From a phage, in sequence record PZ452599.1: DNA of 51,263 nt; one strand, 5' to 3'. The translations under genes were made by a program, and so were the position numbers. Below the pieces are notes generated by a model. That model worked only from the letters and a program-made list of their open reading frames with translations. It searched no databases and was not told the DNA's origin. Below, in pieces: positions 1 to 48,654 of this stretch (its first letter is position 1; each line of letters begins with the position of its first letter).

Positions 1-1569
1 ATGATCATATGGGAAGATTTGACGGCGGCGCAAAAGCGAGCCATTAAAGAAATCAGTGAGCATTCATTCGAAAAGATGATCAGAATCTGGTTCCAATTAT
101 TGCAGGGGCAAAAATTCCAGAGCAACTGGCATTTTAGCTTATTGTGCAGTGAGGTAGAGAAGATCATCAATGGAGAGTCGCAGAATGTGATTTTCAACAT
201 TACGCCAGGTAGCGGCAAGACTGAGATTTTCTCGATCCACATGTCACCCTACGCGTCATTGAAAAGCCGGAAAGTGAGAAACCTTAACCTTTCGTTTAGT
301 GATGGCCTTGTCCAGCAAAACAGCAACCGGATAAAGGAGATTATCGGTTCTCCTGAGTGGCAAGAGCTATGGCCTGGAAAACTGGCAAAGGCGAGCGCTA
401 AAGATCTGATAGTCACCGAAGGCGGCAAGGTTAAATTGCAAGTTAACTCACGTTCTATTGGCGGCCAGGTAACAGGTTTGCGTGGCGGATATATGGATGA
501 TGGTTTTACTGGTATGCTGGTTCTTGACGATCCAGACAAGCCGGATGATATGCTTTCTAAGGTCAAGCGCGAGGCTATTCACATGCGGTTAAAAAACACA
601 GTGCGATCGCGTCGAATGAAAGACACCACGCCAATTGTTATGGTGCAACAGCGACTACACGTTAATGATTCCACCTGGTTCATGCTTAATGGCGGGATGG
701 GTGGTATTGAGTTTAAAGTCGTGAGCATTCCGGCGCTGGTTACGAAAGAATACCGCGAAACGCTTCCTGATTGGTTGAAGCCTGAATTTGATCGTGATGT
801 GCTGTCAAGTAAGCCAGTGATGATAGATGGCGTCGCTCATTATTCATTTTGGCCTGCGAAGGAAAGCGCGGAGGAGTTGCTTGCATTGCGCAATGCAGAT
901 CCTTACACGTTCGCCAGCCAATACCAACAGCAACCAATCGCGCTTGGCGGGAACGTGTTTAAAACAGAGTGGTTCCAGTATTACGGCAGCGGCGAAAAGT
1001 GCGCACTACCAAAACCGGATCGCTTTGAATACACATTTATTACTGGAGATACCGCGCAGAAGGCCGGAGAGCTTAACGACTATTCGGTTTTTTGTTATTG
1101 GGGGATGTATAAGAATCGCGTTTACTTCATTGATGGCATTCGCGGAAAGTGGGAAGCGCCGGATCTTGAATTAAATTTTATTGCCTTCGTTAACCAGTGC
1201 TGGAAGCGCAATAAGGAGTGTGGCAGCTTGCGACGTATCCACATTGAGGATAAGGCCAGCGGCACGGGTTTGATTCAGGGGGCCAAAAAGAAGATCCCGA
1301 TTGATATAAATCCCGTTCAGCGAAGCAATGACAAGGTAACGCGAGCAATGGACGCCGCGCCAGTAATGAGGGCCGGACGTGTGGCACTGCCAGAAAATCA
1401 CCCAATGCTGCCTGAGATACTGGCAGAGGTTGCAGCATTCACTTTTGATGATTCTCATCCCCATGATGATATTGTCGATAATATAGTTGATGCTGTTAAC
1501 GTCGAAATGAACTTGGCAGATGATCCGGTGGCAAGGATGAAAAAGCTGGCAGGTCTACGCAATAAATAG
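1..1569 (+). CDS. terL: terminase large subunit
   Basis: 522-aa ORF with Walker A-like NITPGSGKTE and Walker B-like MLVLDDPD; directly follows terS if window ends are joined; ATG at position 1. Confidence 0.8.
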   Translation: MIIWEDLTAAQKRAIKEISEHSFEKMIRIWFQLLQGQKFQSNWHFSLLCSEVEKIINGESQNVIFNITPGSGKTEIFSIHMSPYASLKSRKVRNLNLSFSDGLVQQNSNRIKEIIGSPEWQELWPGKLAKASAKDLIVTEGGKVKLQVNSRSIGGQVTGLRGGYMDDGFTGMLVLDDPDKPDDMLSKVKREAIHMRLKNTVRSRRMKDTTPIVMVQQRLHVNDSTWFMLNGGMGGIEFKVVSIPALVTKEYRETLPDWLKPEFDRDVLSSKPVMIDGVAHYSFWPAKESAEELLALRNADPYTFASQYQQQPIALGGNVFKTEWFQYYGSGEKCALPKPDRFEYTFITGDTAQKAGELNDYSVFCYWGMYKNRVYFIDGIRGKWEAPDLELNFIAFVNQCWKRNKECGSLRRIHIEDKASGTGLIQGAKKKIPIDINPVQRSNDKVTRAMDAAPVMRAGRVALPENHPMLPEILAEVAAFTFDDSHPHDDIVDNIVDAVNVEMNLADDPVARMKKLAGLRNK

Positions 1570-1595
1570 CACTAATTGCTAAAAAGTTATATAAT
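1564..1595 (+). promoter_or_regulatory. variant motif (TAGCACTAATTGCTAAAAAG) followed by TATAAT, between terL and portal
   Basis: Begins with terL stop TAG; TATAAT at about 1590-1595; a near-identical variant follows the kinase gene at 47321-47358. Confidence 0.35.
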
Positions 1596-1598
1596 CAA

Positions 1599-1622
1599 GG
1601 CTGGATTTTTCCAGCCTTTTTT
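1599..1622 (+). terminator. intrinsic terminator after terL
   Basis: Hairpin GGCTGG-ATTTTT-CCAGCC followed by T-run. Confidence 0.55.
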
Positions 1623-3694: not shown

Positions 3695-4810
3695 ATGAAG
3701 GCAAAACAAAGATTTGATAGCGCCAAAGTAAAGGCGCACTTTGATGATAACGGGTTTTTAGTTGATCGCCCTATCGTGGCGCGAATTGGTTTACAAGTCT
3801 ATCAGACTCCCTTCGGTGAGCGCAGAGAATTTCGTCCGGCGTCCGAAGTATTCAAGGCCGACTCACTCGCCACCTTCGCAGGGAAGCCAGTCACGGTTGG
3901 TCACGTTACGGTAACTCCAGAAAACGCCGAAAAGGTTGTGGTTGGTTCTTGTGCTGGCGCTGGTGTGCCGAACGGGATCGGCGTAGAGGTTCCGTTAAGC
4001 ATTTACTCAAAACGAGCAATCGAAAGCGCGAAGAAGCGAGACACGGCTGAAATTTCAGTTGGTTATACCTCGGTTGATATTGATAAACCTGGCTGGGGCA
4101 ATAATAAAACTGGTGAGTACGTTTTCGATGAGGATGTTAGCGAAGACTGGAAACCGGATTCTCCTGATTGGGTTAAGTTTGATGCAATCCAGACTGAAAT
4201 CAAGGTAAACCACATCGCGTTAGTCTTCCGAGGTCGTGCTGGTATTGCAAAATTAAACCTTGATAGTCAGCAAGATTTTCCGTATAGTGACGAAGTTATT
4301 AACAACAAAGAGGATCAAACCATGACTGTAAAAATTAAACTGGATGGCGCTGTAGAATTTGATGTTCCGAAAGCAGTTGCGGATCACATTGAATCACTGA
4401 AAGCTGATGCAAAAGCACAGAAAGAAAAGGCGGACGGCCTGGAAGCTGAGCGAGATGCACTGCAAACCAAAGTAGATGGCATTCAGGATCAGATTGATGC
4501 CGCAGTCAAGAAAGCCAAAGAAGATGCCGCGCAACATGCTCAATTAGTAGCAGACGCTAAAGAGTTAGGAATCAAGTGCGACGGCCTGGATGCGAAAGCA
4601 ATCAAGGTTGCATACATCAAAGAAGTTATGGGCAATGACGTTTCCGATAAAACTGATGCCTATATCGAAACAGCTTTCGACATCGCCAAAAACTCTGATA
4701 AAATGGCGGCGCAGCGTAAGAGCATTAAGGGTGACTCTTTCGCGAATGAAAAACATGATGAAGCAGGTTCTAAGCTGAATCCTAACGCTCGTTTTGAGAA
4801 ACTGAAATAA
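3695..4810 (+). CDS. putative prohead protease / scaffolding protein
   Basis: 371 aa; GAGGTG RBS; C-terminal coiled-coil-like A/K/E/D-rich segment; position before capsid genes. Confidence 0.45.
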   Translation: MKAKQRFDSAKVKAHFDDNGFLVDRPIVARIGLQVYQTPFGERREFRPASEVFKADSLATFAGKPVTVGHVTVTPENAEKVVVGSCAGAGVPNGIGVEVPLSIYSKRAIESAKKRDTAEISVGYTSVDIDKPGWGNNKTGEYVFDEDVSEDWKPDSPDWVKFDAIQTEIKVNHIALVFRGRAGIAKLNLDSQQDFPYSDEVINNKEDQTMTVKIKLDGAVEFDVPKAVADHIESLKADAKAQKEKADGLEAERDALQTKVDGIQDQIDAAVKKAKEDAAQHAQLVADAKELGIKCDGLDAKAIKVAYIKEVMGNDVSDKTDAYIETAFDIAKNSDKMAAQRKSIKGDSFANEKHDEAGSKLNPNARFEKLK

Positions 4811-6165: not shown

Positions 6166-6190
6166 CTAATAGCATAAAAAAACATTGCAC

Positions 6191-6210
6191 GTTTAACAAA
6201 AAGTGCTATC
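6191..6210. promoter_or_regulatory. reverse-oriented motif copy (GTTTAACAAAAAGTGCTATC) upstream of major capsid gene
   Basis: Located between the Ig-like ORF and terminator 6217-6241; function and direction unresolved. Confidence 0.3.
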
Positions 6211-6216
6211 ATCTAG

Positions 6217-6241
6217 GCCGTTACATTTAACGGCCTTTTTT
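6217..6241 (+). terminator. intrinsic terminator upstream of major capsid gene
   Basis: Hairpin GGCCGTT-ACATTT-AACGGCC followed by TTTTTT. Confidence 0.6.
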
Positions 6242-9878: not shown

Positions 9879-9883
9879 AACAA

Positions 9884-9905
9884 GGGGCGTTGCGCCCCTT
9901 TTTTC
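9884..9905 (+). terminator. intrinsic terminator after major tail gene
   Basis: Hairpin GGGGCG-TTG-CGCCCC followed by T7. Confidence 0.7.
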
Positions 9906-9943
9906 ATTCCTGTAAAATCAATCTATCAAATAAATTAATTCCA

Positions 9944-9963
9944 CTTTTAACAAAAAGTGCTAT
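9944..9963. promoter_or_regulatory. reverse-oriented motif copy abutting RBS of tail chaperone gene
   Basis: CTTTTAACAAAAAGTGCTAT immediately followed by AAGGAGA and ATG 9978; contains TGCTATAAG resembling an extended -10. Confidence 0.3.
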
Positions 9964-9977
9964 AAGGAGATCTTGAG

Positions 9978-10295
9978 ATGGCAAAGATGAAACTAACGTT
10001 AGGCCCACTGCCTGATTTTAAACTGCCTGTTTCTTTCGTGCTTCCAAATGGTGATGAGCAAGTTATTGTTTTCACTGTGCGCCACAAGAAGGCAAGCGAG
10101 ATTCACGAACGATACACGGCAGAAAAGCCGATGAGCGACGTAGAAATGATCACCTTCCTTGCTTCCGGTTGGGATCTGGAAGATGAATTTAACGAGGAAA
10201 ACGTTGCTAAATTGCTGGATTATTACCCTTCTGCGTCATTATCGCTGACTGGTCATTATATGAAAGCACTTGCGGGGCAGCGGGTAAAAAACTAA
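9978..10295 (+). CDS. tail assembly chaperone (lambda gpG-like)
   Basis: 105 aa; AAGGAGA RBS; ends with slippery A_AAA_AAC directly before its TAA; -1 frame stays open to 10612. Confidence 0.7.
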   Translation: MAKMKLTLGPLPDFKLPVSFVLPNGDEQVIVFTVRHKKASEIHERYTAEKPMSDVEMITFLASGWDLEDEFNEENVAKLLDYYPSASLSLTGHYMKALAGQRVKN

Positions 10296-14510: not shown

Positions 14511-15241
14511 TGATTAGTGCAAAAATTAAACTTGAAATAATGCAGCACGTTAAAGAGGAATACCCTAAAGAGGCTTGCGGCGTCATAACTCAAAAGTCAC
14601 GGGTACAGAAATATCACCGCATAACCAACGTGCATGACGATCCAGAAAATCATTTTGAAATGGACGCCGTAGAATACGCTGAATCGCTCGACAAAGGCGA
14701 ATTAATCGCGGTGGTGCATTCCCATTGCGGGGATGGTGCTAGTACGATACCGAGCGCGCACGACTCATGTATGTGCGATGAAATGGGTGTATCGTGGATT
14801 ATAGTTTCATGGCCCGAAGGTGATATGAGAATTGTCGAGCCGCAGGAGAGGCCGCTTATCGGTCGCCCGTGGTCGCTGGGGTCGTTCGATTGCTGGGGTC
14901 TTATCATGGCGTGGCATAAACAGCACGGAGTAGTATTGAATGACTTCCGAAAGCCTTACGAGTGGTGGAAGTCAGAATATGGTGAAAATCTTTACCAGGA
15001 TAATTATTTGAAAGAGGGATTTGTTGAAACTAACGAGCCTCCAAAACCTGGTGATATGGTGATTATGCAGCTATCATCGCCAGTCTGGAATCATGCTGGG
15101 ATTTATTTGGGTAACAATCAGCTATTACATCATGCGTTTGGAAAGCTATCTCGCATTGACTTGTATTCTGGATGGTATCAGGAGCACACTGTAAAAATTT
15201 GCCGACATAAGGATCTGAAATATGACATTGAAAGTAATTAA
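14510..15241 (+). CDS. tail assembly protein (lambda gpK-like; JAB/MPN plus NlpC/P60-like)
   Basis: 243 aa from ATG 14510 (TAATG overlap with L); HSHCGDGASTIPSAHD JAMM-like motif and DCWGL Cys/His motif. Confidence 0.8.
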   Translation: MISAKIKLEIMQHVKEEYPKEACGVITQKSRVQKYHRITNVHDDPENHFEMDAVEYAESLDKGELIAVVHSHCGDGASTIPSAHDSCMCDEMGVSWIIVSWPEGDMRIVEPQERPLIGRPWSLGSFDCWGLIMAWHKQHGVVLNDFRKPYEWWKSEYGENLYQDNYLKEGFVETNEPPKPGDMVIMQLSSPVWNHAGIYLGNNQLLHHAFGKLSRIDLYSGWYQEHTVKICRHKDLKYDIESN

Positions 15242-15818: not shown

Positions 15819-15823
15819 AAAAA

Positions 15824-15848
15824 TACCCGCCTTGCGCGGGTATTTTTG
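15824..15848 (+). terminator. intrinsic terminator after gpI-like gene
   Basis: Hairpin TACCCGC-CTTG-CGCGGGTA followed by TTTTT; TATAAT-like element follows at about 15857. Confidence 0.6.
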
Positions 15849-15896
15849 TGCCTTTATAATGTGCAAACCAAGAAACAGCACAAAAGGTTAAAAGTC

Positions 15897-20699: not shown

Positions 20700-20743
20700 A
20701 CTATACACGATCCGGCAAGCCGAGTTTAGCAAAAAGTGCTACT
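20700..20743 (-). promoter_or_regulatory. motif-type promoter (variant GTAGCACTTTTTGCTAAAC plus TATAGT) for lipoprotein operon
   Basis: Motif reverse-complemented on + strand at 20725-20743; -10-like hexamer 18-19 nt downstream on the - strand. Confidence 0.45.
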
Positions 20744-23748: not shown

Positions 23749-26047
23749 TGAGATCAACAAGTTTTGCAACCATCGACTTTAATTCGTCAACCTCACTTCT
23801 TAGCGATCGCAATTCCTCCTCCTGCTCTTTGCAAACTTGCAATATGTATGCAGTTACCGCTGAGTAGTCAACTTGTAGAAATCTTTCCTTCCCAATAAGT
23901 TCGCTACCGTCTTTTGTTGGGCCATGCAATTGCTGATAATCCTCAAAAGAACTAATAGCCTCCGGCACAACCTCCATGATCTCTTGAGCTATAACTCCAG
24001 CATAAGGCATACCATCTTTCTTTAACGTGTATGTATACCCACTAACTTTCTCAAGACCTAGCCTTGCATTTTCAATTGGTTTAATGTCAGTTTTCAAATC
24101 TCTGTCTGACCCATGGTTAAATGCTGTTGCGTTCACAGGTCCGTTAACTTGCAGGTGTTTAGAGTTATTTGAGTTTAACTGAGCATAGAACACCCATCCA
24201 GGGCCGTTATCGAAACCCCACTCAATAACCGACTGACGATCTGACCCGTTGCCCCACAACTTGAAGGTTGCCGGGTGTGACGAGTTGCCATCGTTCAGCA
24301 TTTTGAAATACTTACCACTCGGTCGGTCTATCTCCAAACTCGCCGCCTGTACATATGCTTTCCCCGCGAAATTCTTAGTTCCGAGTACGACGCCGTCGGT
24401 GATCAATTCAACCCTAGAAGACGTGATGTCGTTCAGAAACAGGGCGCTCGTTCCGGTGTCCTTCCCTAAAAACCAAAGACGTGTGCCTGCGGAGTTGTAC
24501 CCTGTTACATGCAGTGGTTGGTTGTTTGTTGACGCTGTTCCGTCGATACGAAAACCGCCATTGGCTGTTGTAACTTTAAGGCTGGGTACGGTCATAGCGA
24601 ATGCGCCACTGGCCGCAAGGCCGTTATACGCGATCAGCTTGTTGTCATACGCAAACTCACCATTGTCGCGCATTTGTAGCGCTTTCTGCGACGTCCTGTT
24701 GCGAATGCCAACATCAGATCCGCCAACAAACATCTCAACAATTCTAGACCCGCTTTTAGCTCTTACATAAGCATTAAATTCAGGAGACGACCCCGCGTTA
24801 TACAACTCGTACCATTGCGACCAGTTGCCAGTAGCAGCGTTACTAAGCCATCGCATAAAACGACGCCCGCTGCTGAATGTTGTATACGTCTGTATGCAGC
24901 TTTTAGGATCGTTAGCGCCAGTGCGCTGAACAAGTAGGCAGCCTGCCGCCTGAATGGGATAATTACGCTCCGGCGTTGCGCTGGCAGACGTGCTAGTATA
25001 ATAAAATCCAGCCTTATCGCCCTGAAGAACGTTAAGATCTTCGCTTACCAACGATGCCTGTCGCTCGTGCATTGCCTGAAGGTTTTTTCTCGCGCCCTGG
25101 TCGTTCGATGCGCCTGTCCCGCCGTCCCCGATCGCCACGTCACCGTTAGCACCCAGCTTCGCCAGTTCAATGGCGCCCACATTTCCAGATGAGCCGTTAA
25201 TCGCGGCATTGTTTCCAGCGAAAACCTTCACGCGAGATGTCTGGTAGTCAACGTTAAACGCAAAAAATGTGTCACCAGCCCCGCCGCACACCCCTGGACC
25301 ATACCTGAACGGCGTCATATCGCCAGAAGGGAACTGCGTAATATCATCGACGCGCCAGAATCCTCCTTTGACAGTATCGCGCAACCGCTTGAGCATATCC
25401 CTTACGCCAGTCGGCGCAGGTAATGTTACACCCGCATACGGCACTCTATTTTGAGCTTCTGAACTTTCAGCAGCAGCCGCTGCGCGATCAGCTTCTGTTT
25501 TAGCCTTGTTTGCACTGTTTGCAGCATTAGTTTCAGATGTTTTGGCGTTTGTCTCAGAAGTCTTCGCGGCACTAGCCGAGTTAGCAGCATTAGTTTCCGA
25601 TGTTTTAGCGTTTGTCTCAGAAGTCTTCGCAGCGCTGGCGCTTTGTTTTGCTGATTCAGCGCCTTGTTTCACCTGATTTACAAGATCTTTCAACCCATCA
25701 AGATCGAAATCTTTAAAAAATTCAAGTGCGTCAGCGATCTCCGTTTCCTTGCTTTGATAGTAACGCAGTGTTTCCGCTACGTCCTGCGCCAGCCCGTCAA
25801 CCGTTAACGAGTCATGAAGCAAGATCAGGTAATTTGTCTTTTGGACTACCGCGCCGCCAGTAGTAATTGCGCGAATGCTTGTATCGCTAATCACCTCTGT
25901 AATCACAGCAGCTTGCAAAGGTTGAGTAAGAAAGAAAATAGTTGCACCTGGGCGAATCAATGTTAATTGCTCACGCCATTTTGTATCGTAACCAGTTACA
26001 TAACCTTGCGCGTCCATAGACGCTTGGCCTTGTCTGTAAATCGCCAT
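23744..26047 (-). CDS. lateral tail fiber with C-terminal intramolecular chaperone (S74-like) domain
   Basis: 767 aa from ATG 26047 (GGAGG RBS); tandem [22 protein letters not shown] repeat; C-terminal [13 protein letters not shown] with [11 protein letters not shown]...VDYSAV resembling auto-cleaving chaperone domains of tail fibers. Confidence 0.7.
25521..25646 (-). repeat. tandem 63-bp direct repeat (2 copies) inside lateral fiber gene
   Basis: 25521-25583 and 25584-25646 are about 90 percent identical; encode [22 protein letters not shown] twice. Confidence 0.8.
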
Positions 26048-26065
26048 TTGTAAAATCCTCCTAAA

Positions 26066-26097
26066 TAGCACTTTTTGCTAATGACAATGCAGATAAT
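26066..26097 (+). promoter_or_regulatory. motif copy (variant TAGCACTTTTTGCTAATGAC) adjacent to lateral fiber start
   Basis: Plus-oriented copy whose reverse complement abuts the fiber RBS; GATAAT at 26092-26097; direction of action unresolved. Confidence 0.35.
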
Positions 26098-26112
26098 AGC
26101 ATTTTCAAGTGT

Positions 26113-27137: not shown

Positions 27138-27614
27138 TTAGCTATTCGTGCTGTTATCACCTTTGTAGAATCGTCCGCCTGGTTCGTAGTCTGAATTTTT
27201 GACTACGCGCAACATTTCGTATTTGTCGCAACGGGTAGTAAGTGGCTTGCCGTTAGAGTCAAACCGCAGATCTGGACGACAAAATGATGCGCGGTATCCT
27301 TTGCATCCATTATATTTGTAGTCGTTATGCACCTTTTGTGCTCCGGAGGCTGAAATCATACCACGCTTTCGCCATTGGTTAACGACTTGCTGAGATACGC
27401 GCAGACGTCGAGCCATAGCAGGAACACCGCCGTAATACTCGATCAGAATGTCAAGGCGAGATTTCAGGCTTGCTTTTACCTCATCTCGCAGGATAAGAAA
27501 TCCGGTTCGGTGTTTTCGTGGCTTTTTGTCTTTACCTCTTCGCGTTCCGTTGTTACCGTTAATAGTGCGCTTGTCGATCTCACCCGTAGACACTGCAATT
27601 CGTGCATCTTTCAT
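27138..27614 (-). CDS. putative HTH DNA-binding protein
   Basis: 158 aa; GAGGTG RBS; central helix-turn-helix-like segment ARRLRVSQQVVNQWRKRG; start abuts a motif copy. Confidence 0.45.
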   Translation of the reverse strand: MKDARIAVSTGEIDKRTINGNNGTRRGKDKKPRKHRTGFLILRDEVKASLKSRLDILIEYYGGVPAMARRLRVSQQVVNQWRKRGMISASGAQKVHNDYKYNGCKGYRASFCRPDLRFDSNGKPLTTRCDKYEMLRVVKNSDYEPGGRFYKGDNSTNS

Positions 27615-27626
27615 CTAGTCACCTCA

Positions 27627-27669
27627 TAGCATTTTTTGTTAAAACAGTTTATTGTAATGAGTCTATTAT
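27627..27669 (+). promoter_or_regulatory. motif-type promoter for helicase operon in divergent region
   Basis: TAGCATTTTTTGTTAAAAC at 27627-27645, 18-nt spacer, TATTAT 27664-27669; the same motif abuts the RBS of divergent gene 27138-27614. Confidence 0.5.
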
Positions 27670-27701
27670 ATACTCCAAATGGCATTTTTTAAAGGTTTAA
27701 G

Positions 27702-29699: not shown

Positions 29700-30118
29700 T
29701 GGCTATAACTGATAAAGGCGATTATCTTGAGTTTTACGAAAGGGATCCAACCGACACGAGAAGGGAAGTTAATCACCAGATAGATAGTTTTCAGTGGTTG
29801 ACTTATGCTCATCCTTATTTGCTGGCGTGGCATACGGTAAACGAGAATGAGAAGTCTAAAGCAACGGCGATGATTGATCAGCAGTCCGGCTTGGTTAAGG
29901 GAGTAAGCGATTTCATCATCCTGATTGGTTTAAACGGAAAATACCCCTTTGCAGCGATTGAGATCAAACGAGTGAATAAATCAGGCAAGGGGAAAGCATC
30001 ACCAGTCAGCGATGAACAAAAGGCTTTTTTGCGTCGCGTTCGCAGCTTAGGAGGATTCGCTGCGGTAGCCTACGGATTCAATCAGTTTAAGTTGGCTATT
30101 GAATACATGCTTAAATAG
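29699..30118 (+). CDS. VRR-NUC domain nuclease
   Basis: 139 aa; TAATG overlap with helicase; GVSDFIILIG...AIEIK PD-(D/E)XK-like motif. Confidence 0.55.
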   Translation: MAITDKGDYLEFYERDPTDTRREVNHQIDSFQWLTYAHPYLLAWHTVNENEKSKATAMIDQQSGLVKGVSDFIILIGLNGKYPFAAIEIKRVNKSGKGKASPVSDEQKAFLRRVRSLGGFAAVAYGFNQFKLAIEYMLK

Positions 30119-30158
30119 CACTTTTTGTTAAAACTGGCGCGATGGATTGCGCCATAAT
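30116..30158 (+). promoter_or_regulatory. motif-type promoter (motif, 18-nt hairpin spacer, CATAAT)
   Basis: TAGCACTTTTTGTTAAAAC 30116-30134; spacer hairpin GGCGC...GCGCC; CATAAT 30153-30158; upstream of dam. Confidence 0.5.
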
Positions 30159-30198: not shown

Positions 30199-30924
30199 AT
30201 GGCTAAAGATATTTTAGATAAAGACACCCATGACGCATTCGTTAGCTTTGAGCAGTTGGAGAGAGAAACGTTTATAGGGAATGCCCTTGCAACTGGAGGC
30301 CATTACCAGGCAGTAAAGCCAAATCAATATTATAAGGTAAGCGGAAACCGATACGCTGGAAGCACTACGCCGGACGTTGTGCGAGATATGTGGAGCACGC
30401 CTCAAGAGATCGTGGAGTGGATGGAATCAGAATTTGGTGAATACGATCTCGACGCGGCAGCAAGCCAGGAAAACGCAGTTTGCGAGAAGTTCTATAGCAA
30501 GGAGACAAACTGCTTAAAGCGTTGGTGGGGTAGCAACAAGCACGTATGGCTTAACCCGCCGTACAGCAACCCAACTCCATTTATCAAGAAAGCAATTGAG
30601 CAAATGGAGCACAACAACCAAATTGATGTTTTGTTGCCAGCAGACAACTCTACAGCATGGTTTTATGAGGCGCAGAAAAACGCGGCTGAAATTATCTGGA
30701 TCACTGGCGAGGTTTACGAAGAGGGTGGAGTAGAATACTCCCGCACCGGAAGAATTGCCTTTGTGTCTGGATTGACTGGTGAGCCTGTGCAGGGCAACAA
30801 CAAGGGAAGCGTGATTTTTGTCATGCGCAAACTTAAAGAAGGCGAGGAGCAGAAAACGCGATACGTTAAGATCAGCGATATTTGCCCTTCTGTAACCGAA
30901 CGTCGCGCACGCAAACGGAGCTAA
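30199..30924 (+). CDS. dam: DNA N6-adenine methyltransferase (phage Dam-like)
   Basis: 241 aa from ATG 30199 (GGAG 9 nt upstream); catalytic NPPY motif (VWLNPPYSN). Confidence 0.7.
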   Translation: MAKDILDKDTHDAFVSFEQLERETFIGNALATGGHYQAVKPNQYYKVSGNRYAGSTTPDVVRDMWSTPQEIVEWMESEFGEYDLDAAASQENAVCEKFYSKETNCLKRWWGSNKHVWLNPPYSNPTPFIKKAIEQMEHNNQIDVLLPADNSTAWFYEAQKNAAEIIWITGEVYEEGGVEYSRTGRIAFVSGLTGEPVQGNNKGSVIFVMRKLKEGEEQKTRYVKISDICPSVTERRARKRS

Positions 30925-30928
30925 CACG

Positions 30929-31186
30929 ATGGAAAAAGAGAGAAGCGTTTATTTAAATGAAACTGGCGAGTGGTTGTTATTTCGTGCTATGGTGTGCGAT
31001 GCACTTGATAAAAACCCTAACGTGAAAAAAATGATTGATTGCGATCCGTGGGAATTTTCAAGCGCATTAGATATGAGCTTTGAGGAGACAAGAAAACTCC
31101 CGCTTGAAAAATGGCACGAACAAATCAGAAATGACATGCAAGAGTTTGTCGATTCGTGGAATTTTCAGCACGGAATGATCCACTAA
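30929..31186 (+). CDS. hypothetical protein
   Basis: 85 aa; stop is followed directly by a motif copy. Confidence 0.5.
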   Translation: MEKERSVYLNETGEWLLFRAMVCDALDKNPNVKKMIDCDPWEFSSALDMSFEETRKLPLEKWHEQIRNDMQEFVDSWNFQHGMIH

Positions 31187-31229
31187 TAGCACTTTTTGTT
31201 AAAACGCCCGGCCTAGTGTCGGGCATAAT
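31187..31229 (+). promoter_or_regulatory. motif-type promoter
   Basis: Motif 31187-31205; spacer hairpin GCCCG...CGGGC; CATAAT 31224-31229; upstream of gene 31262. Confidence 0.5.
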
Positions 31230-34403: not shown

Positions 34404-34448
34404 AATATACCCGACAATAGGTCGGGCGTTTTAACAAAAAATGCTATT
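34404..34448 (-). promoter_or_regulatory. motif-type promoter
   Basis: Motif variant (AAAAAATGCTATT) 34428-34448; spacer hairpin CCCGAC...GTCGGG; TATATT -10; upstream of gene 34143-34367. Confidence 0.45.
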
Positions 34449-36565: not shown

Positions 36566-36610
36566 ATTTTAACGGCCCAATACTACCCCGTTTTGTCAAA
36601 AAGTGCTATT
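36566..36610 (-). promoter_or_regulatory. motif-type promoter (variant with TTGACA)
   Basis: Motif 36590-36610 (- strand reads AATAGCACTTTTTGACAAAAC); spacer hairpin GGGCCGTT...AACGGCCC; TAAAAT -10; upstream of P-loop gene. Confidence 0.5.
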
Positions 36611-37240: not shown

Positions 37241-37284
37241 TTATGCCAGGTTTTTACACCTGGCTTTTAACAAAAAGTGCTATT
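37241..37284 (-). promoter_or_regulatory. motif-type promoter
   Basis: Motif 37264-37284; spacer hairpin GCCAGG...CCTGGC; CATAAT -10; upstream of gene 36824-37210. Confidence 0.5.
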
Positions 37285-38929: not shown

Positions 38930-39210
38930 TATGCGATCCCAGTTACGTTAAAACTTACAGCCTTTGTTGCGCTAAATACATAAGCATCAACAGCGCCGCC
39001 AAATACACGAATTTTACCCTGGCCGTACTGCGCATTCATATTTCGCCAAACCGTTCTATTAGAGCAGAATGCGCTACCAGTCTTAATAAGCGTATCCATC
39101 TCTTTTCTTAGATCGCGATAGTCCAGCCAGAATCTAAAGGCACGCTGTTTAATTCGCGCCGCCTTGATTTTTTCTCTTGCGCTATTGAAATCATTCTTTC
39201 CGTATGCCAT
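38929..39210 (-). CDS. hypothetical protein
   Basis: 93 aa; overlapping start/stop with neighbours. Confidence 0.45.
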   Translation of the reverse strand: MAYGKNDFNSAREKIKAARIKQRAFRFWLDYRDLRKEMDTLIKTGSAFCSNRTVWRNMNAQYGQGKIRVFGGAVDAYVFSATKAVSFNVTGIA

Positions 39211-39438: not shown

Positions 39439-39483
39439 AATATACCATTCAGGCGCACATAGTTTTTAACAAAAAGTGCTATT
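39439..39483 (-). promoter_or_regulatory. motif-type promoter with conserved leader
   Basis: Motif 39463-39483; TATATT -10; leader ACACCCATCGACAACAAGCGAGGA nearly identical to that at 39915-39944. Confidence 0.5.
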
Positions 39484-39944: not shown

Positions 39945-39989
39945 AATGTACAGGAATACGAGGATTGAGTTTTAACAAAAAGTGCTATT
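39945..39989 (-). promoter_or_regulatory. motif-type promoter with conserved leader
   Basis: Motif 39969-39989; TACATT -10; leader ACACGCATCGACAACGAATGCGAGGA. Confidence 0.5.
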
Positions 39990-41248: not shown

Positions 41249-41293
41249 AATGTACCCGATCAGACGACCTGAGTTTTAACAAAAAGTGCTATT
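41249..41293 (-). promoter_or_regulatory. motif-type promoter with conserved leader
   Basis: Motif 41273-41293; TACATT -10; leader ACACACATCAAAACGAACCG; upstream of gene 40942-41214. Confidence 0.5.
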
Positions 41294-42353: not shown

Positions 42354-42613
42354 AAAAGGCATTAATCAGCGTTTTGGCGGCAATGGCATTCCTGACCGGA
42401 TGTAATGGTGATGGCGCTTACGTCGATGCGCAAATGGCTAACCCTTCCGATACTTACAACGTCAGAAAACTATTTACAGTTGATGGTTGCGATGTGTACA
42501 GGTTCAGCGATAGCCGATACGTGTACTTTACCAACTGCCAGGGTAGCGCAAACTGGTCAACTAACGAAGGTAAGTCGGTTGGTCACTACCAGAACACAAC
42601 AAACGTGAAATAG
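42350..42613 (+). CDS. lipoprotein (second; candidate superinfection exclusion or surface-modifying protein)
   Basis: 87 aa; ATGA coupling; signal peptide with lipobox FLTGC (MKKALISVLAAMAFLTGC). Confidence 0.55.
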   Translation: MKKALISVLAAMAFLTGCNGDGAYVDAQMANPSDTYNVRKLFTVDGCDVYRFSDSRYVYFTNCQGSANWSTNEGKSVGHYQNTTNVK

Positions 42614-42653
42614 CACTTTTTGTTAAAACGCCAGGTGCAAAGCCTGGCATAAT
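42611..42653 (+). promoter_or_regulatory. motif-type promoter
   Basis: Motif 42611-42629 (begins with stop codon of lipoprotein gene); spacer hairpin GCCAGG...CCTGGC; CATAAT 42648-42653. Confidence 0.5.
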
Positions 42654-42685
42654 AGCCTCATCGAAACGAGATTGAGGAAACAAAA

Positions 42686-43072: not shown

Positions 43073-43073
43073 A

Positions 43074-43116
43074 TAGCACTTTTTGTTAAAACTCGAAAAC
43101 GATAACCAGGCATAAT
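43074..43116 (+). promoter_or_regulatory. motif-type promoter
   Basis: Motif 43074-43092; 18-nt spacer; CATAAT 43111-43116; upstream of gene 43172. Confidence 0.5.
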
Positions 43117-44141: not shown

Positions 44142-44294
44142 ATGGCTACCTGGATTTTGCTGATTCTTATGATTGATGGCGGCGTTGACCATATCGAAAT
44201 GAATAGCCAGCAATCTTGCATTGAGGCACGAGAGCAGATCAAGAACAACAACAGGTTTTATGCGTACACTCACACGCTATGTATTAAGAAATAG
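44142..44294 (+). CDS. small membrane protein (50 aa, not in ORF track)
   Basis: ATG 44142 with GAGGTGAGAG RBS; N-terminal hydrophobic helix WILLILMI; stop TAG begins next motif copy. Confidence 0.45.
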   Translation: MATWILLILMIDGGVDHIEMNSQQSCIEAREQIKNNNRFYAYTHTLCIKK

Positions 44295-44333
44295 CACTTT
44301 TTGTTAAAACTCAAATGTGGGGCCAGGTATAAT
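44292..44333 (+). promoter_or_regulatory. motif-type promoter
   Basis: Motif 44292-44310; TATAAT 44328-44333 lies in the loop of hairpin GGGCC...GGCCC; upstream of gene 44364. Confidence 0.5.
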
Positions 44334-45027: not shown

Positions 45028-45815
45028 AAAAATACACTTTCGAACTGTGGGGCAAGAAGTACGAATTAATCACCAGCAAGCCGATTGTTATCGTTGATCT
45101 GGACGGCACGCTATCGGAAGGATCGCATCGTTTGCATTTGCTGCCAACTGAAAACTTGCACCTTACGGAATCGTGGCGCGAGTTTAACAGGGCCGCCGCC
45201 GGAGATTCACCGATTAAAAGCACTATCGCGGTTATTAACGGTTTATGGGTGTCGGGATTTGCCATCGTCATCTTGACCGGACGCAGCGACGAGGTTCGCT
45301 ATGAAACCTGCAAATGGTTGAATGAGAACGGCGTGAAGTTTGACGAAATCATCATGCGCCGCCAGGAGGACAACCGAAAGGATACGGTTATTAAAGAAGA
45401 AGCCTTGCGCGCTATTGGCCTGGACAACATTGTTTGCGCCTTTGACGATTCGCCGAACGTGGTTAAGCACTTCCGCAGCTTGGGGATCACAACCTATCAG
45501 GTCACGGAATACGACAAGCCACACGCTCACATACAATCTCACGGCGTGGATGAATTGAAGTCAAAAATCGAATGCGAAGGCGAGCACTGTTTTAGTGTGG
45601 TTGATGGTAAATGTTTGCGTTGCGGCGTGGAATCAATCAAGATCACGAAGCGCGCCCGATTCGTCGGCAGCAAAGACAGCCTGGTCAATGCCAGCTTTAT
45701 CAAAGGCAAGGTTTATGATGTTCATAGCCATGATAAAAACCGATTCTTTTTGTGGGATGAAAAAGGTTTTGGCTGGTGCTTTAAGCATGACGACGGCGAT
45801 TTTGTTAATGCGTAA
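45024..45815 (+). CDS. HAD-family phosphatase with C-terminal zinc-ribbon / FxPGxxY-like domain
   Basis: 263 aa; HAD motif I VIVDLDGTL, motif II ILTGRSD, motif IV FDDS; C-terminal CxxC...CxxC followed by FIKGKVYDV...FLWDEKG. Confidence 0.6.
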   Translation: MKKYTFELWGKKYELITSKPIVIVDLDGTLSEGSHRLHLLPTENLHLTESWREFNRAAAGDSPIKSTIAVINGLWVSGFAIVILTGRSDEVRYETCKWLNENGVKFDEIIMRRQEDNRKDTVIKEEALRAIGLDNIVCAFDDSPNVVKHFRSLGITTYQVTEYDKPHAHIQSHGVDELKSKIECEGEHCFSVVDGKCLRCGVESIKITKRARFVGSKDSLVNASFIKGKVYDVHSHDKNRFFLWDEKGFGWCFKHDDGDFVNA

Positions 45816-45858
45816 TAGCACTTTTTGTTAAAACATCTTAACGGGCTTGCGGTATAGT
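45816..45858 (+). promoter_or_regulatory. motif-type promoter
   Basis: Motif 45816-45834; TATAGT 45853-45858 inside hairpin GGGCTT...AAGCCC; upstream of gene 45890. Confidence 0.5.
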
Positions 45859-46729: not shown

Positions 46730-47320
46730 ATGAAACGAGACATTATCATCCTTAATGGGCCTCCAGGTTGTGGAAAGGACACTATTGCAGCTTACCTAAC
46801 GGGCCATCGTTACCCTGCTGTCAAGGCGTCATTCAAACAGCCGATGTTCGATATTGCGTTTTCCATGCTGGGAGTGTACCGATACGATGAATTTATGGAC
46901 CTGTACAACGACCGAGAACAAAAAGAAAAGCCTCAAGTTATTTTGGGCGGCAAGTCACCTCGACAATTCATGATCTGGATTAGCGAGGATGTAATGAAGC
47001 CAGTTTTTGGAGATCACTATTTCGGGCGTCGAATGGTTGAAGAGATTCACGAGATGTACCGAGATTTGGCGGTTGTGATCAGTGATGGCGGATTCCCCGA
47101 AGAAATCAAACCGCTGGTTAAGGCAGGGCATGAAGTGCATATTTGCCGATTGCATCGCGACGGCTTCACGTTTGCTGGCGATTCGAGAGACTACATTGAC
47201 CTGAGCGGTTATCACTATCGAATCCATCACTATGACTTCCACTTGCAGGACGGCAAACCGGAACTGGCTGTAAACGAGATCGTCAATGCTGTCAAATGGA
47301 AACACACGCAGATTAAATAG
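46730..47320 (+). CDS. P-loop nucleotide/nucleoside-monophosphate kinase (T4 gp1 dNMP kinase-like)
   Basis: 196 aa; Walker A LNGPPGCGKDT; stop is followed by a variant motif copy. Confidence 0.55.
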   Translation: MKRDIIILNGPPGCGKDTIAAYLTGHRYPAVKASFKQPMFDIAFSMLGVYRYDEFMDLYNDREQKEKPQVILGGKSPRQFMIWISEDVMKPVFGDHYFGRRMVEEIHEMYRDLAVVISDGGFPEEIKPLVKAGHEVHICRLHRDGFTFAGDSRDYIDLSGYHYRIHHYDFHLQDGKPELAVNEIVNAVKWKHTQIK

Positions 47321-47358
47321 CACGAATTGCTAAACGCGGGGCGCAATGCCTCGCTATA
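47321..47358 (+). promoter_or_regulatory. variant motif (TAGCACGAATTGCTAAAC) followed by TATAAT
   Basis: Begins with kinase stop TAG; TATAAT at 47353-47358; upstream of gene 47391. Confidence 0.4.
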
Positions 47359-48320: not shown

Positions 48321-48611
48321 ATGGCAAACAAAACTTACCGCAAACTACTGGTTAACGCTTTTGAAAACATTGCGCAGTGTAACAAGTGGAACGACTCTAA
48401 ACACTCGCCAGTCACAATGAAGCGCGCCGGATTCAAAAATGCTCGTTCATGGGCGCGAGCTTTCGCAGCTTGCTATATGCCGGATGGTGGACTAGGAGCG
48501 ATGAACGATTTTTTGATCAACATGATAGAGGAAGCTGCGCGAGAGGATCGACCGCTGACACAGCGAGATTTTGACGACTTCGCGCGCGATGAGCTTTACT
48601 ATCTGAGCTAA
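48321..48611 (+). CDS. hypothetical protein
   Basis: 96 aa; AAGGGG RBS; stop followed by motif copy. Confidence 0.5.
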   Translation: MANKTYRKLLVNAFENIAQCNKWNDSKHSPVTMKRAGFKNARSWARAFAACYMPDGGLGAMNDFLINMIEEAAREDRPLTQRDFDDFARDELYYLS

Positions 48612-48654
48612 TAGCACTTTTTGTTAAAACTTCCGCAAGGGCATTTGATAAAGT
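48612..48654 (+). promoter_or_regulatory. motif-type promoter
   Basis: Motif 48612-48630; GATAAA-like -10 inside hairpin AAGGGCA...TGCCCTT; upstream of gene 48687. Confidence 0.45.

What the first reader, a model, noticed from the sequence alone, without database searches (positions are those of the whole stretch)
9944..9977. Same motif in opposite orientation abutting the RBS of structural and divergent genes
At 9944-9963, 6191-6210, 26066-26085 (read on the minus strand) and 27627-27645 (read on the minus strand) the reverse complement of the motif sits immediately upstream of the RBS of the tail chaperone, major capsid, lateral fiber and HTH genes. In this orientation it contains TGCTAT(A/C/T)A, resembling an extended -10. 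The element may therefore work bidirectionally, or act as a late-gene or antisense promoter.
Basis: partly seen in the sequence, partly recalled or inferred. Interest (0 to 1): 0.5.

Follow-up and report, generated by a model that had tools for sequence, protein, structure and literature searches.

The report
Host marbox sites wired into phage promoters
The repeated 20-base motif of this T1-like phage matches, in sequence and in spacing, the binding site ("marbox") of the host stress regulators MarA/SoxS/Rob; the "reversed" copies sit inside or beside late-gene promoters, which suggests a testable way the phage could time its genes using a host factor.

Summary
The window is a T1-like coliphage (Drexlerviridae, Warwickvirus; 98.5% identical to phage Poky). 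The motif ATAGCACTTTTTGTTAAAAC is the known but unexplained "21-nt repeat" of TLS and T1.

**The four sites.** All four exist, but they are four different things:
- **HTH (pir) copy:** an ordinary forward copy serving the divergent helicase gene.
- **Capsid copy:** lies inside a family-wide sigma70 promoter, TTGnnn-16 bp-TGnTAnnnT. It forms the spacer and the first half of the -10. A hairpin, not the RBS, follows it.
- **Tail-chaperone copy:** a complete motif-plus-(-10) promoter pointing antisense, overlapping a conserved sense promoter. Its sense "TATnnn" never ends in T.
- **Fibre copy:** lies at about +4 to +22 of a conserved extended -10 promoter.

**New reading.** The motif fits the published E. 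coli marbox pattern gcannwwntgnnaaa (19 exact hits against 1.5 expected). In 62 of 68 forward copies from four genera it sits 18 bp from a -10 hexamer and there is no -35. [quoted passage not shown] No MarA or Rob homologue is encoded by the phage.

**Best model.** Host Rob/MarA/SoxS activates the early cassettes and represses or competes at the late promoters. Binding is untested. I found no paper making this link.

The parts
9944..9963 (-). Marbox-type 20-mer ATAGCACTTTTTGTTAAAAG, the 'reverse' copy before the tape-measure chaperone gene. It abuts AAGGAG, with the ATG at 9978.
   Evidence: Invariant across 21 distinct sequences while the flanks vary.
9920..9925 (-). -10 hexamer TAGATT of the antisense cassette, 18 nt after the 20-mer. 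The predicted leftward start is near 9913.
   Evidence: TAnnnT at this offset in 21 of 21 sequences. Absent where the motif is absent. The start site is inferred, not measured.
9890..9918 (+). Sense promoter of the chaperone gene: -35 TTGCGC (9890-9895, in the terminator loop), 17 bp, -10 TAAAAT (9913-9918). The predicted start is near 9925, so the motif lies at about +21 to +39.
   Evidence: TTGCnn-17-TA(A/G/C)AAT or TAATAT is conserved in T1, TLS and the IMG/VR lineages.
9882..9900 (.). Terminator-like hairpin flagged on both strands, after the major tail gene. It would end the antisense transcript after about 36 nt.
   Evidence: both strands listed; -13.9 kcal/mol, z -3.2.
6191..6209 (-). 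Marbox-type copy ATAGCACTTTTTGTTAAAC lying between the -35 and -10 of the major capsid promoter.
6185..6212 (+). Major capsid promoter: -35 TTGCAC (6185-6190), 16-bp spacer with TG at 6204-6205, -10 TATCAT (6207-6212). The predicted start is at 6218-6220.
   Evidence: 66 of 70 distinct sequences keep the full pattern. The T1 record annotates the equivalent site as a promoter.
6215..6241 (+). Terminator hairpin plus T-run starting 3 nt after the -10. The predicted start lies inside its 5' arm.
   Evidence: (full hairpin -15.7 kcal/mol; RNA from 6220 -4.4 kcal/mol).
26065..26083 (+). Marbox-type copy ATAGCACTTTTTGCTAATG (second recognition element imperfect), reverse to the lateral fibre gene. 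It abuts TTAGGAGG, with the ATG at 26047.
26093..26101 (-). Extended -10 TGcTATTAT of the fibre promoter. The motif then lies at about +4 to +22.
   Evidence: TGnTA(T/G/A)(A/T)AT is conserved after the primase terminator in all lineages, with or without the motif.
27626..27645 (+). Ordinary forward cassette marbox for the helicase gene (ATG 27702). It also abuts the RBS of the divergent HTH (pir-like) gene.
27664..27670 (.). Overlapping -10 hexamers: TATTAT (+, helicase cassette, 27664-27669) and TATAAT (-, HTH gene promoter, 27670-27665).
   Evidence: T1 has the same layout.
1566..1618 (+). Forward marbox ATAGCACTAATTGCTAAAA (1566-1584) only 5 nt from TATAAT (1590-1595), followed 1 nt later by a terminator hairpin (1597-1618), before the portal gene.
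15832..15893 (+). Tail-fibre J promoter TTGCGC (15832-15837)-17-TATAAT (15855-15860), with a one-mismatch marbox ACAGCACAAAAGGTTAAAA (15875-15893) covering the RBS, 3 nt from the ATG.
   Evidence: The same element is in T1 (25021) and TLS (24908).
20724..20742 (-). Forward cassette for the leftward cor-like operon, with TATAGT at the standard spacing.
30115..30133 (+). Forward cassette (before the dam gene). The TAG stop of the upstream gene lies inside the motif.
31186..31204 (+). Forward cassette.
34429..34447 (-). Forward cassette.
36591..36609 (-). Forward cassette.
37265..37283 (-). Forward cassette.
39464..39482 (-). Forward cassette.
39970..39988 (-). Forward cassette.
41274..41292 (-). 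Forward cassette, the first of the leftward early operon.
42610..42628 (+). Forward cassette.
43073..43091 (+). Forward cassette.
44291..44309 (+). Forward cassette.
45815..45833 (+). Forward cassette.
47317..47335 (+). Forward cassette of the GAA class (ATAGCACGAATTGCTAAAC).
48611..48629 (+). Forward cassette.
27138..27614 (-). HTH regulator gene, homologue of T1 Pir/Orf23 (58% identity). This is the rival candidate for the motif-binding protein.
   Evidence: T1 experiments in PMC6737242.

Best explanation
**What the motif is.** The repeated 20-mer is a marbox, the asymmetric binding site of the enterobacterial AraC-family activators MarA, SoxS and Rob (RamA in Klebsiella).

**The ordinary copies.** In 17 copies of this window the marbox faces the downstream gene. 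It overlaps the position where a -35 would be, and it lies exactly 18 bp from a -10 hexamer. These are class II marbox promoters like E. coli micF. A host activator bound at about -41 would replace -35 recognition and switch on the early and middle genes.

**The 'reversed' copies.** They are the same site placed where it cannot activate the neighbouring late gene.
- Capsid promoter: the site fills the spacer and supplies TG plus the first half of the -10. This is the layout of the marbox-repressed E. coli pbpG promoter.
- Chaperone gene: the site forms a complete class II promoter pointing backwards. Its -10 and start interleave with those of the sense late promoter, so polymerase recruited to it would exclude the late promoter. 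It would make only a roughly 36-nt terminated RNA.
- Fibre gene and HTH (pir) gene: the site lies just downstream of the start site.

**Inferred consequence.** While the host factor is available, early cassettes are on and these late promoters are held down. Late promoters would be released as the factor decays or is titrated by replicating phage DNA.

**Shown versus inferred.** Shown here: the sequence match, orientation, spacing, conservation and promoter elements. Inferred: binding by the host proteins, the start sites, the direction of regulation and the timing model.
For: **Sequence match to the marbox.**
- The marbox pattern used for E. coli, 5'-gcannwwntgnnaaa-3' (PMC12052159), has 19 exact matches in the window against 1.49 expected. 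Every one is a motif copy.
- The variable positions of the phage motif (8-10 and 14) are the degenerate positions of the marbox. Positions 9-10 are A or T in 66 and 68 of 68 cassettes.
- The micF site read from E. coli K-12 is ACAGCACTGAATGTCAAAAC, which is 15 of 20 identical to the phage 20-mer. The mar site is ATGCCACGTTTTGCTAAATC.

**Geometry.**
- micF has 18 nt between the 20-mer and its -10, TAGAAT.
- 62 of 68 cassettes in Warwickvirus, T1, TLS and Webervirus have the same 18 nt; 5 have 17 and 1 has 19.
- GCAC therefore falls at about -47 to -44, where Rob contacts G-47 and A-45 in the Rob-polymerase structure (PMC9178005).
- Class II sites are forward, centred near -41, and lack a -35 (PMC10268841). 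The cassettes have AAAACn at the -35 position.

**No phage-encoded candidate of this family.** No MarA or Rob homologue is encoded by the four phages (phmmer best E 0.5).

**Reverse copies.**
- A marbox in a promoter spacer represses pbpG.
- The E. coli rob promoter reads AACAGCAAAAAATGCTATTAT, close to the phage capsid promoter AACAAAAA(A/G)TGCTAT(C/T)AT.
- The capsid promoter pattern is kept in 66 of 70 sequences.
- The chaperone antisense -10 is kept in 21 of 21 sequences and is tied to the presence of the motif.
- The HTH copy lies between that gene's promoter and its RBS, and T1 Pir expression is negatively controlled there (PMC6737242).
Against: - No binding, start-site or expression data exist for these phages. 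Every position relative to +1 assumes a start 7 nt after the hexamer.
- Position 19 is usually A, whereas the 20-bp consensus I recall from Martin et al. 1999 has a pyrimidine there. micF also has A at this position.
- In T1, the phage protein Pir activates the dam promoter (a forward cassette) and represses its own promoter. A phage factor could therefore be the real ligand.
- MarA and SoxS are scarce in unstressed cells, and Rob is reported to be largely sequestered. Dependence of all early genes on them would be risky for a virulent phage.
- Repression at +14 to +31 is weaker than at core positions in known systems.
- The Webervirus capsid copies have an eroded GCAC (ATATCAC) while the promoter itself is intact. 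The marbox is therefore dispensable there.
- The TLS group lacks the chaperone and fibre copies.
Confidence: 0.6

Rival explanations
1. A phage-encoded regulator is the ligand. The candidate is the conserved HTH protein (27138-27614, homologue of T1 Pir/Orf23), acting as a dimer on the imperfect dyad TAGCA-N5-TG(C/T)TA. It would activate from about -42, as lambda cI does at PRM, and repress where the site overlaps or follows a promoter. On this view the resemblance to the marbox is coincidental or mimicry.
For: - In T1, Pir activates the dam promoter, whose 150-bp fragment contains a forward cassette at 38953. Pir also represses its own promoter, where the motif abuts the RBS (PMC6737242).
- Orf65 activates its own promoter, which carries a GAA-class cassette at 4344.
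- Pir is conserved in all lineages, next to a cassette.
- Half-site centres are 10 bp apart (matrix).
Against: - The constraints are not symmetric. G4 is invariant, but its partner position 14 is C or T about equally, and the TAAAA arm is conserved outside the dyad.
- Pir also regulates the hol and recE promoters, which have no motif.
- Orf65 has no homologue in this window although the motif is present.
- The exact fit to the marbox pattern and to micF spacing would have to be coincidence.
Confidence: 0.2
2. One reading: in reverse orientation the motif is itself an extended -10 promoter (TGCTATnA) that drives the adjacent late or HTH genes. The element would therefore be generally bidirectional.
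For: - This holds for the capsid copy: a conserved -35, TG and TAnnnT.
- The T1 record annotates a predicted promoter there.
Against: - T at -7 is missing in 0 of 21 chaperone copies, in nearly all fibre copies, in the HTH copy, and in 12 of 13 ordinary copies.
- A start would fall within or after the RBS at 9978 and 26047.
- Separate conserved promoters lie upstream of the motif.
Confidence: 0.08
3. An RNA-level element. Reverse copies in late 5' leaders (GUUUUAACAAAAAGUGCUAU next to the RBS) would pair with the complementary forward copies carried in read-through early mRNAs, or bind a translational regulator. Translation would be blocked or RNase III cleavage triggered.
For: - Three reverse copies end 1-4 nt from the RBS in many lineages.
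- Forward copies begin at the stop codon of the upstream gene with no terminator in between, so they would be transcribed.
Against: - The fixed 18-bp distance to a -10 in 62 of 68 copies is a DNA-level promoter constraint.
- The capsid copy lies upstream of the predicted start.
- Distance to the ATG varies from 12 to 23 nt, while distance to the promoter elements does not.
- The proximity to the RBS is explained by compaction.
Confidence: 0.07
4. The reverse copies are non-functional relics: scars of recombination or inversion between repeated promoter cassettes, comparable to the shuffling cassettes of T4-type phages.
For: - The copies are lost in some lineages (TLS group, Webervirus) without loss of the neighbouring promoters.
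- The cassettes are repeated and modular.
Against: - The 19-mer is invariant in 21 chaperone sequences whose flanks and proteins have diverged to 56% identity.
- It is coupled to a conserved antisense -10.
- The capsid copy is present across subfamilies.
Confidence: 0.05

Closest known systems
E. coli mar/sox/rob regulon class II promoters (micF as the type; also lpxC P2, lpxL P1, rfaY P1)
   Same: - 20-bp asymmetric site with GCAC and (C/T)AAA elements.
- Forward orientation, overlapping the -35 position.
- 18 bp to the -10 hexamer and no recognisable -35.

   Different: - The sites are in a virulent phage, about 20 per 51 kb. They are nearly identical to each other and closer to consensus than most chromosomal sites.
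- They begin at the stop codon of the preceding gene.
- Binding by MarA, SoxS or Rob has not been tested.
Marbox-repressed E. coli promoters: pbpG (marbox in the spacer) and rob (Schneiders and Levy 2006)
   Same: - The capsid copy lies between -35 and -10, as at pbpG.
- The rob promoter sequence AACAGCAAAAAATGCTATTAT closely resembles the phage capsid promoter.
   Different: - The position and orientation of the published rob marbox are from my memory. Only the paper's title could be confirmed.
- The phage site is a much better marbox than the rob one.
- Repression has not been tested.
The '21-nt direct repeat' aaATAGCACnnnTTGnTAAAA of phage TLS, also noted in T1, Rtp and Rogue1 (PMC11447400)
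   Same: It is the same element, with the same position about 76 nt upstream of start codons.
   Different: - That paper reports all intergenic copies as co-directional with transcription and leaves the function open, suggesting stoperators, enhancers or UP elements.
- The reverse copies do exist: at the capsid gene in TLS itself, and at the capsid, chaperone and fibre genes in T1.
- The marbox identity is not mentioned there.
Stoperators of mycobacteriophage L5 (repressor gp71 sites)
   Same: Many copies of an asymmetric site in short intergenic gaps, often touching stop codons.
   Different: - Stoperators act in one orientation within transcribed DNA to block elongation in a lysogen, and they are bound by the phage repressor.
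- Here the site is at a fixed distance from a -10 (a promoter element), occurs in both orientations, and the phage is virulent.
T4 middle promoters (MotA box at -30 plus a sigma70 -10) and lambda PRM/PR (cI at -42)
   Same: An activator site replaces or flanks the -35 of a promoter with a good -10. The same protein can repress where its site overlaps a core promoter.
   Different: - Those use phage-encoded proteins.
- The sequences are unrelated.
- The lambda operators are dyads.

Membership tests
Marbox (MarA/SoxS/Rob binding site) | Sequence fits the consensus gcannwwntgnnaaa. From memory, the 20-bp form is AYnGCACnnWnnRYYAAAYn. | tested here: met
   19 exact matches against 1.49 expected. 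The positional matrix of 68 cassettes fits every specified position of the 15-mer. Position 19 of the recalled 20-mer is A rather than Y, as in micF.
Marbox (MarA/SoxS/Rob binding site) | Non-palindromic, with two recognition elements (GCAC and YAAA) one helical turn apart. | tested here: met
   GCAC at positions 4-7 and TAAA at 15-18 are both near-invariant, with an A/T-rich, variable stretch between them. The elements are described in PMC9178005.
Marbox (MarA/SoxS/Rob binding site) | Bound by MarA, SoxS, Rob or RamA. | not testable with these tools
   This needs EMSA, footprinting or ChIP. The only indirect point is that no phage-encoded homologue exists.
Class II marbox promoter | Forward orientation, overlapping the -35, centred near -41, with 18-19 bp between the 20-mer and the -10. 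| tested here: met
   62 of 68 cassettes have 18 nt, 5 have 17 and 1 has 19. micF read from the genome has 18 nt. The rules are in PMC12052159 and PMC10268841. Numbering assumes a start 7 nt after the hexamer.
Class II marbox promoter | No recognisable -35 hexamer, together with a canonical -10. | tested here: met
   The -35 position reads AAAACn (2-3 of 6 matches). The -10 hexamers are CATAAT, TATAAT, TATATT, TATAGT and similar. Class II promoters average 1.9 matches at the -35.
Class II marbox promoter | Transcription depends on the activator. | not testable with these tools
   No expression data in rob, marA or soxS mutants were found.
Class I marbox promoter (reverse orientation, upstream of a good -35) | Reverse marbox centred at about -52 to -85 from a start site, with a -35 about 15 nt beyond it as at mar. 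| tested here: not met
   No -35 and -10 pair exists at the required distance downstream of the copies at 9963, 6209 or 26065. That space is RBS and coding sequence (mar layout).
Repressive marbox within a core promoter (pbpG type) | Marbox overlaps the spacer or -10 of a sigma70 promoter. | tested here: met
   Capsid copy: 6191-6209 lies between TTGCAC (6185) and TATCAT (6207). This is conserved in 66 of 70 sequences. Whether it represses was not tested.
   Met at the capsid copy. Not met at the chaperone copies (0 of 21 with T at -7), at most fibre copies, or at the HTH copy.
Stoperator (L5-type) | A single orientation relative to transcription throughout the genome, a phage repressor as ligand, and action on elongation. 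| tested here: not met
   Both orientations occur relative to flanking genes. The site is locked to a -10 at 18 bp, so it is a promoter element. The ligand was not tested.
Drexlerviridae 21-nt intergenic repeat (TLS paper) | aaATAGCACnnnTTGnTAAAA, intergenic, about 76 nt upstream of start codons. | tested here: met

The most novel reading that the evidence does not exclude
T1-like phages run their whole temporal programme on a host stress regulator. Rob, MarA or SoxS (RamA in Klebsiella) would switch on about 17 early and middle class II cassettes. The same factor would hold down the portal, capsid, chaperone, J and fibre promoters through marboxes placed in or just after their cores. One of these is a decoy antisense promoter. 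The early-to-late switch would follow from decay of MarA and SoxS after host shut-off, or from titration of Rob by hundreds of replicated genomes each carrying about 20 sites. Phage development would then be coupled to bile salts, oxidative stress and antibiotic exposure of the host.
Probability: 0.3. Interest if true: 0.85.

Novelty: new variant of a known kind. Interest (0 to 1): 0.68.

Why it matters
[quoted passage not shown] Reading the repeat as a consensus marbox in class II geometry can be tested within days. The tests are gel shifts with Rob, MarA and SoxS, infection of a rob marA soxS mutant, and 5'-end mapping.
- **If true, it would be unusual phage biology.** I know of no other virulent phage family whose promoters are built around the binding site of a host antibiotic- and stress-response regulator. 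It would also explain how a phage with no polymerase, sigma factor or known late activator orders its genes.
- **Practical consequences.** It would link phage efficacy to mar/sox/rob status, which is often altered in multidrug-resistant clinical isolates. This matters for phage therapy with Drexlerviridae against E. coli and Klebsiella.
- **Tools.** The cassettes would also serve as compact, strong, Rob/MarA/SoxS-responsive promoter parts.

Tried and rejected
1. **Sigma54 promoter.** TAGCAC-N3-TTG resembles TGGCAC-N5-TTGC, but the spacing is 2 bp short, GG is AG, and a sigma70 -10 follows. Rejected.
2. **TTGTTA as a -35.** It lies 22 bp from the -10, which is too far. Rejected.
3. **UP element.** The GAA-class copies lack the T-tract and GCAC is invariant. 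Rejected.
4. **Dyad operator for a dimeric HTH protein.** I held this until the marbox match. It is kept as a rival, but the constraints are asymmetric.
5. **Chi-like or packaging signal.** Absolute strand orientation is mixed (11 plus, 9 minus) and follows the genes. Rejected.
6. **Class I geometry for the reverse copies.** There are no promoter elements at the required distance. Rejected.
7. **Antisense cassette at the capsid and fibre copies.** TAnnnT at the standard offset occurs in only 2 of 52 capsid sequences. At the fibre copy it sits at offset 13, as a by-product of the sense TGCTA. Rejected.
8. **The tool's promoter scan.** It does not list the window's capsid promoter, because TTGCAC scores 3 of 6 at the -35. 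The case for that promoter rests on comparative conservation, not on this scan.
9. **Pfam scan of 81 ORFs.** It prints only 25 of 62 families, so it could not exclude an AraC-type protein. I replaced it with phmmer of MarA and the Rob N-terminal domain against six-frame translations of four phages (nothing found).
10. **The Schneiders and Levy 2006 paper on rob repression.** It is not held. I read the rob promoter from the genome instead.
11. **Literature searches.** I looked for T1-like start-site or transcriptome data and for any link between marbox and phage. Nothing relevant turned up.
Full report
**What the window is.** The first 20 kb are 98.5% identical to Escherichia phage vB_EcoD_Poky (Drexlerviridae, Tempevirinae, Warwickvirus). 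More distant relatives include T1, TLS and the Klebsiella Webervirus phages. Structural genes run rightward from 1 to about 19.5 kb. Replication genes and many small early genes fill the rest in blocks of alternating direction.

**The motif and what was already known.** AACAAAAAGTGCTAT with up to 3 mismatches occurs 23 times against 3.3 expected. The degenerate form ATAGCACNNNTTGNTAAAA occurs 23 times against 2.4 expected. It is the "21-nt direct repeat" aaATAGCACnnnTTGnTAAAA described for TLS. [quoted passage not shown] It notes the repeat also in T1, Rtp and Rogue1. It leaves the function open and lists it among the unanswered questions for T1-like phages (PMC11447400).

**Architecture of the ordinary copies.**
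- Seventeen copies in the window face the downstream gene.
- The stop codon of the preceding gene usually lies inside or against the first four bases.
- After the 20-mer come 18 variable bases, often a GC-rich inverted repeat. Next is a -10-like hexamer (CATAAT, TATAAT, TATATT, TATAGT and similar), then a conserved CATCGAAAC-like stretch, an RBS and the ATG.
- Across the window, T1, TLS and Webervirus K7 there are 68 such cassettes. In 62 the hexamer starts 18 nt after the 20-mer; in 5 it starts after 17 nt and in 1 after 19 nt.
- There is no -35. That position reads AAAACn.

**Checking the four sites of the finding.**

*HTH copy (27626-27644).* This is not a reverse copy. It is the ordinary cassette of the divergent helicase gene (ATG 27702), with TATTAT at the standard spacing. 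The HTH gene has its own TATAAT on the other strand, overlapping that hexamer. The motif therefore ends up between the HTH gene's predicted start and its RBS. This layout holds in every lineage examined and in T1.

*Capsid copy (6191-6209).*
- It is followed by a hairpin and T-run, not by the RBS.
- It is flanked by TTGCAC on one side, and its own TGCTAT continues into TATCAT on the other.
- The full pattern TTGNNN-N13-TGN-TANNNT is kept in 66 of 70 distinct capsid-upstream sequences whose capsid proteins are 54-100% identical to the window's.
- The -35 varies among TTGACG, TTGCAC, TTGAAC and TTGACC. The -10 varies among TATTCT, TATCAT, TATATT and TATTAT.
- This variation at free positions with retention of the critical ones is the signature of a real sigma70 promoter. 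The T1 record annotates a predicted promoter and a terminator at the equivalent place.
- In Webervirus-type genomes the terminator lies upstream of the promoter instead.
- In the window the predicted start (6218-6220) falls inside the 5' arm of the hairpin. RNA from 6205 folds at -15.7 kcal/mol, while RNA from 6220 folds at -4.4 kcal/mol. Read-through from upstream should therefore terminate, while promoter-initiated RNA should not. This step is inferred from spacing rules, not measured.

*Chaperone copy (9944-9963).*
- A conserved sense promoter lies upstream. Its -35, TTGCGC, sits in the loop of the major-tail terminator, followed by 17 bp and then TAAAAT. Other lineages have TAGAAT, TACAAT or TAATAT. 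This is also true in lineages with no motif.
- The motif therefore lies at about +21 to +39.
- Its sense-strand pseudo-hexamer (TATAAG, TATCAA, TATCGG, TATTTA, TATCAC, TATTAG, TATTCA, TATTAC) never has T at -7 in 21 distinct sequences.
- The hexamer 18 nt after the 20-mer in the motif's own direction is TAnnnT in all 21, in 11 different versions.
- Lineages without the motif lack this AnnnTA.
- This copy is therefore a complete cassette pointing antisense. Its predicted start (about 9913) and -10 (9920-9925) interleave with the -10 (9913-9918) and start (about 9925) of the sense promoter.
- Its transcript would meet the terminator-like hairpin at 9900-9882, which the scan lists on both strands, after about 36 nt.

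*Fibre copy (26065-26083).* It lies 11-12 nt after a conserved extended -10 (TGcTATTAT; elsewhere TGcTATAAT, TGcTAGAAT or TGcTAAAAT) that follows the primase terminator, at about +4 to +22. The copy is present in several lineages and in T1, and absent in TLS, Webervirus and two other groups. No correctly spaced antisense -10 accompanies it.

*Other late-promoter copies, outside the finding.*
- A forward copy at 1566-1584 lies only 5 nt from a TATAAT that is again followed at once by a terminator hairpin, before the portal gene.
- A one-mismatch copy at 15875-15893 covers the RBS of tail-fibre J, downstream of TTGCGC-17-TATAAT. It is conserved in T1 and TLS.

**What the motif is.** I recalled that the sequence resembles the marbox, the binding site of MarA, SoxS and Rob, and I tested this against sources.
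- *Pattern match.* The pattern used to scan E. coli, 5'-gcannwwntgnnaaa-3' (PMC12052159), has 19 exact matches in the window against 1.49 expected. All are motif copies. Allowing one mismatch adds the fibre and J copies.
- *Positional agreement.* The phage motif varies exactly where the marbox is degenerate. Positions 9 and 10 are A or T in 66 and 68 of 68 cassettes.
- *Comparison with micF.* The micF promoter read from E. coli K-12 is ACAGCACTGAATGTCAAAAC, then 18 nt, then TAGAAT. That is 15 of 20 identical to the phage 20-mer, with an identical distance to the -10.
- *Comparison with mar.* The mar site is ATGCCACGTTTTGCTAAATC, in reverse orientation upstream of TTGACT.
- *Geometry rules.* Class II marbox promoters carry a forward site overlapping the -35, centred near -41, and lack a recognisable -35. 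In the Rob-polymerase structure on micF, Rob contacts G-47 and A-45 and displaces sigma region 4 (PMC9178005). The cassette geometry places its GCAC at about -47 to -44.
- *No phage homologue.* None of four phage genomes encodes a MarA or Rob homologue (best phmmer E 0.5 among 2,318 six-frame segments).
- *Literature.* I found no paper that connects the Drexlerviridae repeat with the marbox.

**How the reverse copies would work on this reading.** In E. coli, marboxes centred between -35 and +25 are treated as core-overlapping. The one in the pbpG spacer mediates direct repression by MarA, SoxS and Rob.
- *Capsid copy.* It has the pbpG layout. The E. coli rob promoter, reported to be repressed by MarA (title confirmed; details from my memory), reads AACAGCAAAAAATGCTATTAT. 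This is close to the phage AACAAAAA(A/G)TGCTAT(C/T)AT.
- *Chaperone copy.* The activator would recruit polymerase to the backward cassette, and this would exclude polymerase from the interleaved late promoter.
- *Fibre, J and HTH copies.* The site lies just downstream of the start.
- *Overall model.* The host factor turns on early cassettes and restrains late promoters. Release would come with loss or titration of the factor. I regard the identity of the site as well supported and the direction of regulation as plausible. The timing model is speculation. The instability of MarA and SoxS and the abundance of Rob are from my own knowledge.

**The main rival.** In T1, the HTH protein Pir (Orf23; the window's 27138-27614 product is 58% identical) activates the dam promoter and represses its own. 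The dam fragment contains a forward cassette. Orf65 activates its own promoter, which carries a cassette (PMC6737242). A phage protein could therefore be the ligand, perhaps on the imperfect dyad TAGCA-N5-TG(C/T)TA.

Against this rival:
- Pir also controls the hol and recE promoters, which lack the motif.
- Orf65 has no homologue here.
- The positional constraints are asymmetric.
- The match to the marbox and to micF spacing would be coincidence.

**Verdict.**
- *Observation:* real but imprecise. One site does not abut the RBS, one is not a reverse copy, and the stated -10 pattern fits two of four sites.
- *Interpretation:* right for the capsid copy (a late promoter) and, in a different sense, for the chaperone copy (an antisense promoter). 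It is wrong as a general rule.
- *Larger result:* the family-wide repeat appears to be a host marbox in class II configuration. This is a concrete, testable answer to an acknowledged open question. It rests entirely on sequence, geometry and conservation. No binding or transcript data were available.

Noticed in passing
window 9882-9918 and 15819-15860: Two late promoters (chaperone and tail-fibre J) place their -35 hexamer, TTGCGC, in the loop and descending arm of the preceding gene's terminator hairpin, 17 bp before the -10. The design is conserved in T1, TLS and distant lineages (TTGCAC, TTGCGT, TTGTGC).
   Followed up: partly
window 1590-1618 and 6207-6236: Two promoters (portal and capsid) have a terminator hairpin starting 1-3 nt after the -10, so the predicted start lies inside the 5' arm of the stem. 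Full hairpins fold at -16.8 and -15.7 kcal/mol. RNAs from the predicted starts fold at -4.4 kcal/mol. Upstream read-through would stop, while promoter-initiated RNA would pass.
   Followed up: partly
L118 (E. coli K-12 rob promoter, NC_000913.3 about 4635350-4635400, minus strand): The host rob promoter reads ACTGAATGCTAAAACAGCAAAAAATGCTATTAT. Its -10 region is nearly identical to the phage capsid promoter, and it shares the 13-mer AAAATGCTATTAT with the window's fibre promoter (26105-26093).
   Followed up: partly
window, forward cassettes (e.g. 30116-30118, 42611-42613, 44292-44294, 47318-47320, 34446-34444): In about 14 of 17 forward copies the stop codon of the preceding gene is the TAG inside ATAGCAC, or a TAA overlapping or abutting its first A. 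There is no spacer between a gene and the next promoter.
   Followed up: partly
window 42629-42647, 31205-31223, 34428-34410, 37264-37246, 30135-30152: About half of the cassettes carry a GC-rich inverted repeat inside the 18-bp stretch between the marbox and the -10 (for example GCCAGGTGCAAAGCCTGGC). On the opposite strand each looks like a hairpin followed by GTTTT. Purpose unknown.
   Followed up: no
window, about 7 nt after each cassette hexamer (e.g. 42659-42668): A conserved CATCGAAAC(G)-like sequence sits at the predicted start of the cassette transcripts. It is shared with T1, TLS and Webervirus cassettes and with the motif-less T1 recE promoter (CATCGTAAACGAAGGAG).
   Followed up: no
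L002 (T1) 30305-30345: The T1 recE promoter, reported as Pir-repressed, is TTGACT-16-TATAAT. It has a degenerate motif-like CGATTGACTAAAC whose TTG serves as the -35, as if it were a cassette with a spacer 6 bp shorter.
   Followed up: no
L003 (TLS) 15024-15042: TLS itself has a reverse copy in its capsid promoter, although the TLS paper describes all intergenic repeats as lying in the direction of transcription.
   Followed up: yes
L051-L082 (Webervirus-type contigs), capsid upstream: In many Klebsiella-phage contigs the capsid-promoter copy has decayed to ATATCACGAATCG(T/C)TAA(A/G)C, while TTGACG-16-TGaTATTCT is intact. The promoter outlives the marbox.
   Followed up: partly
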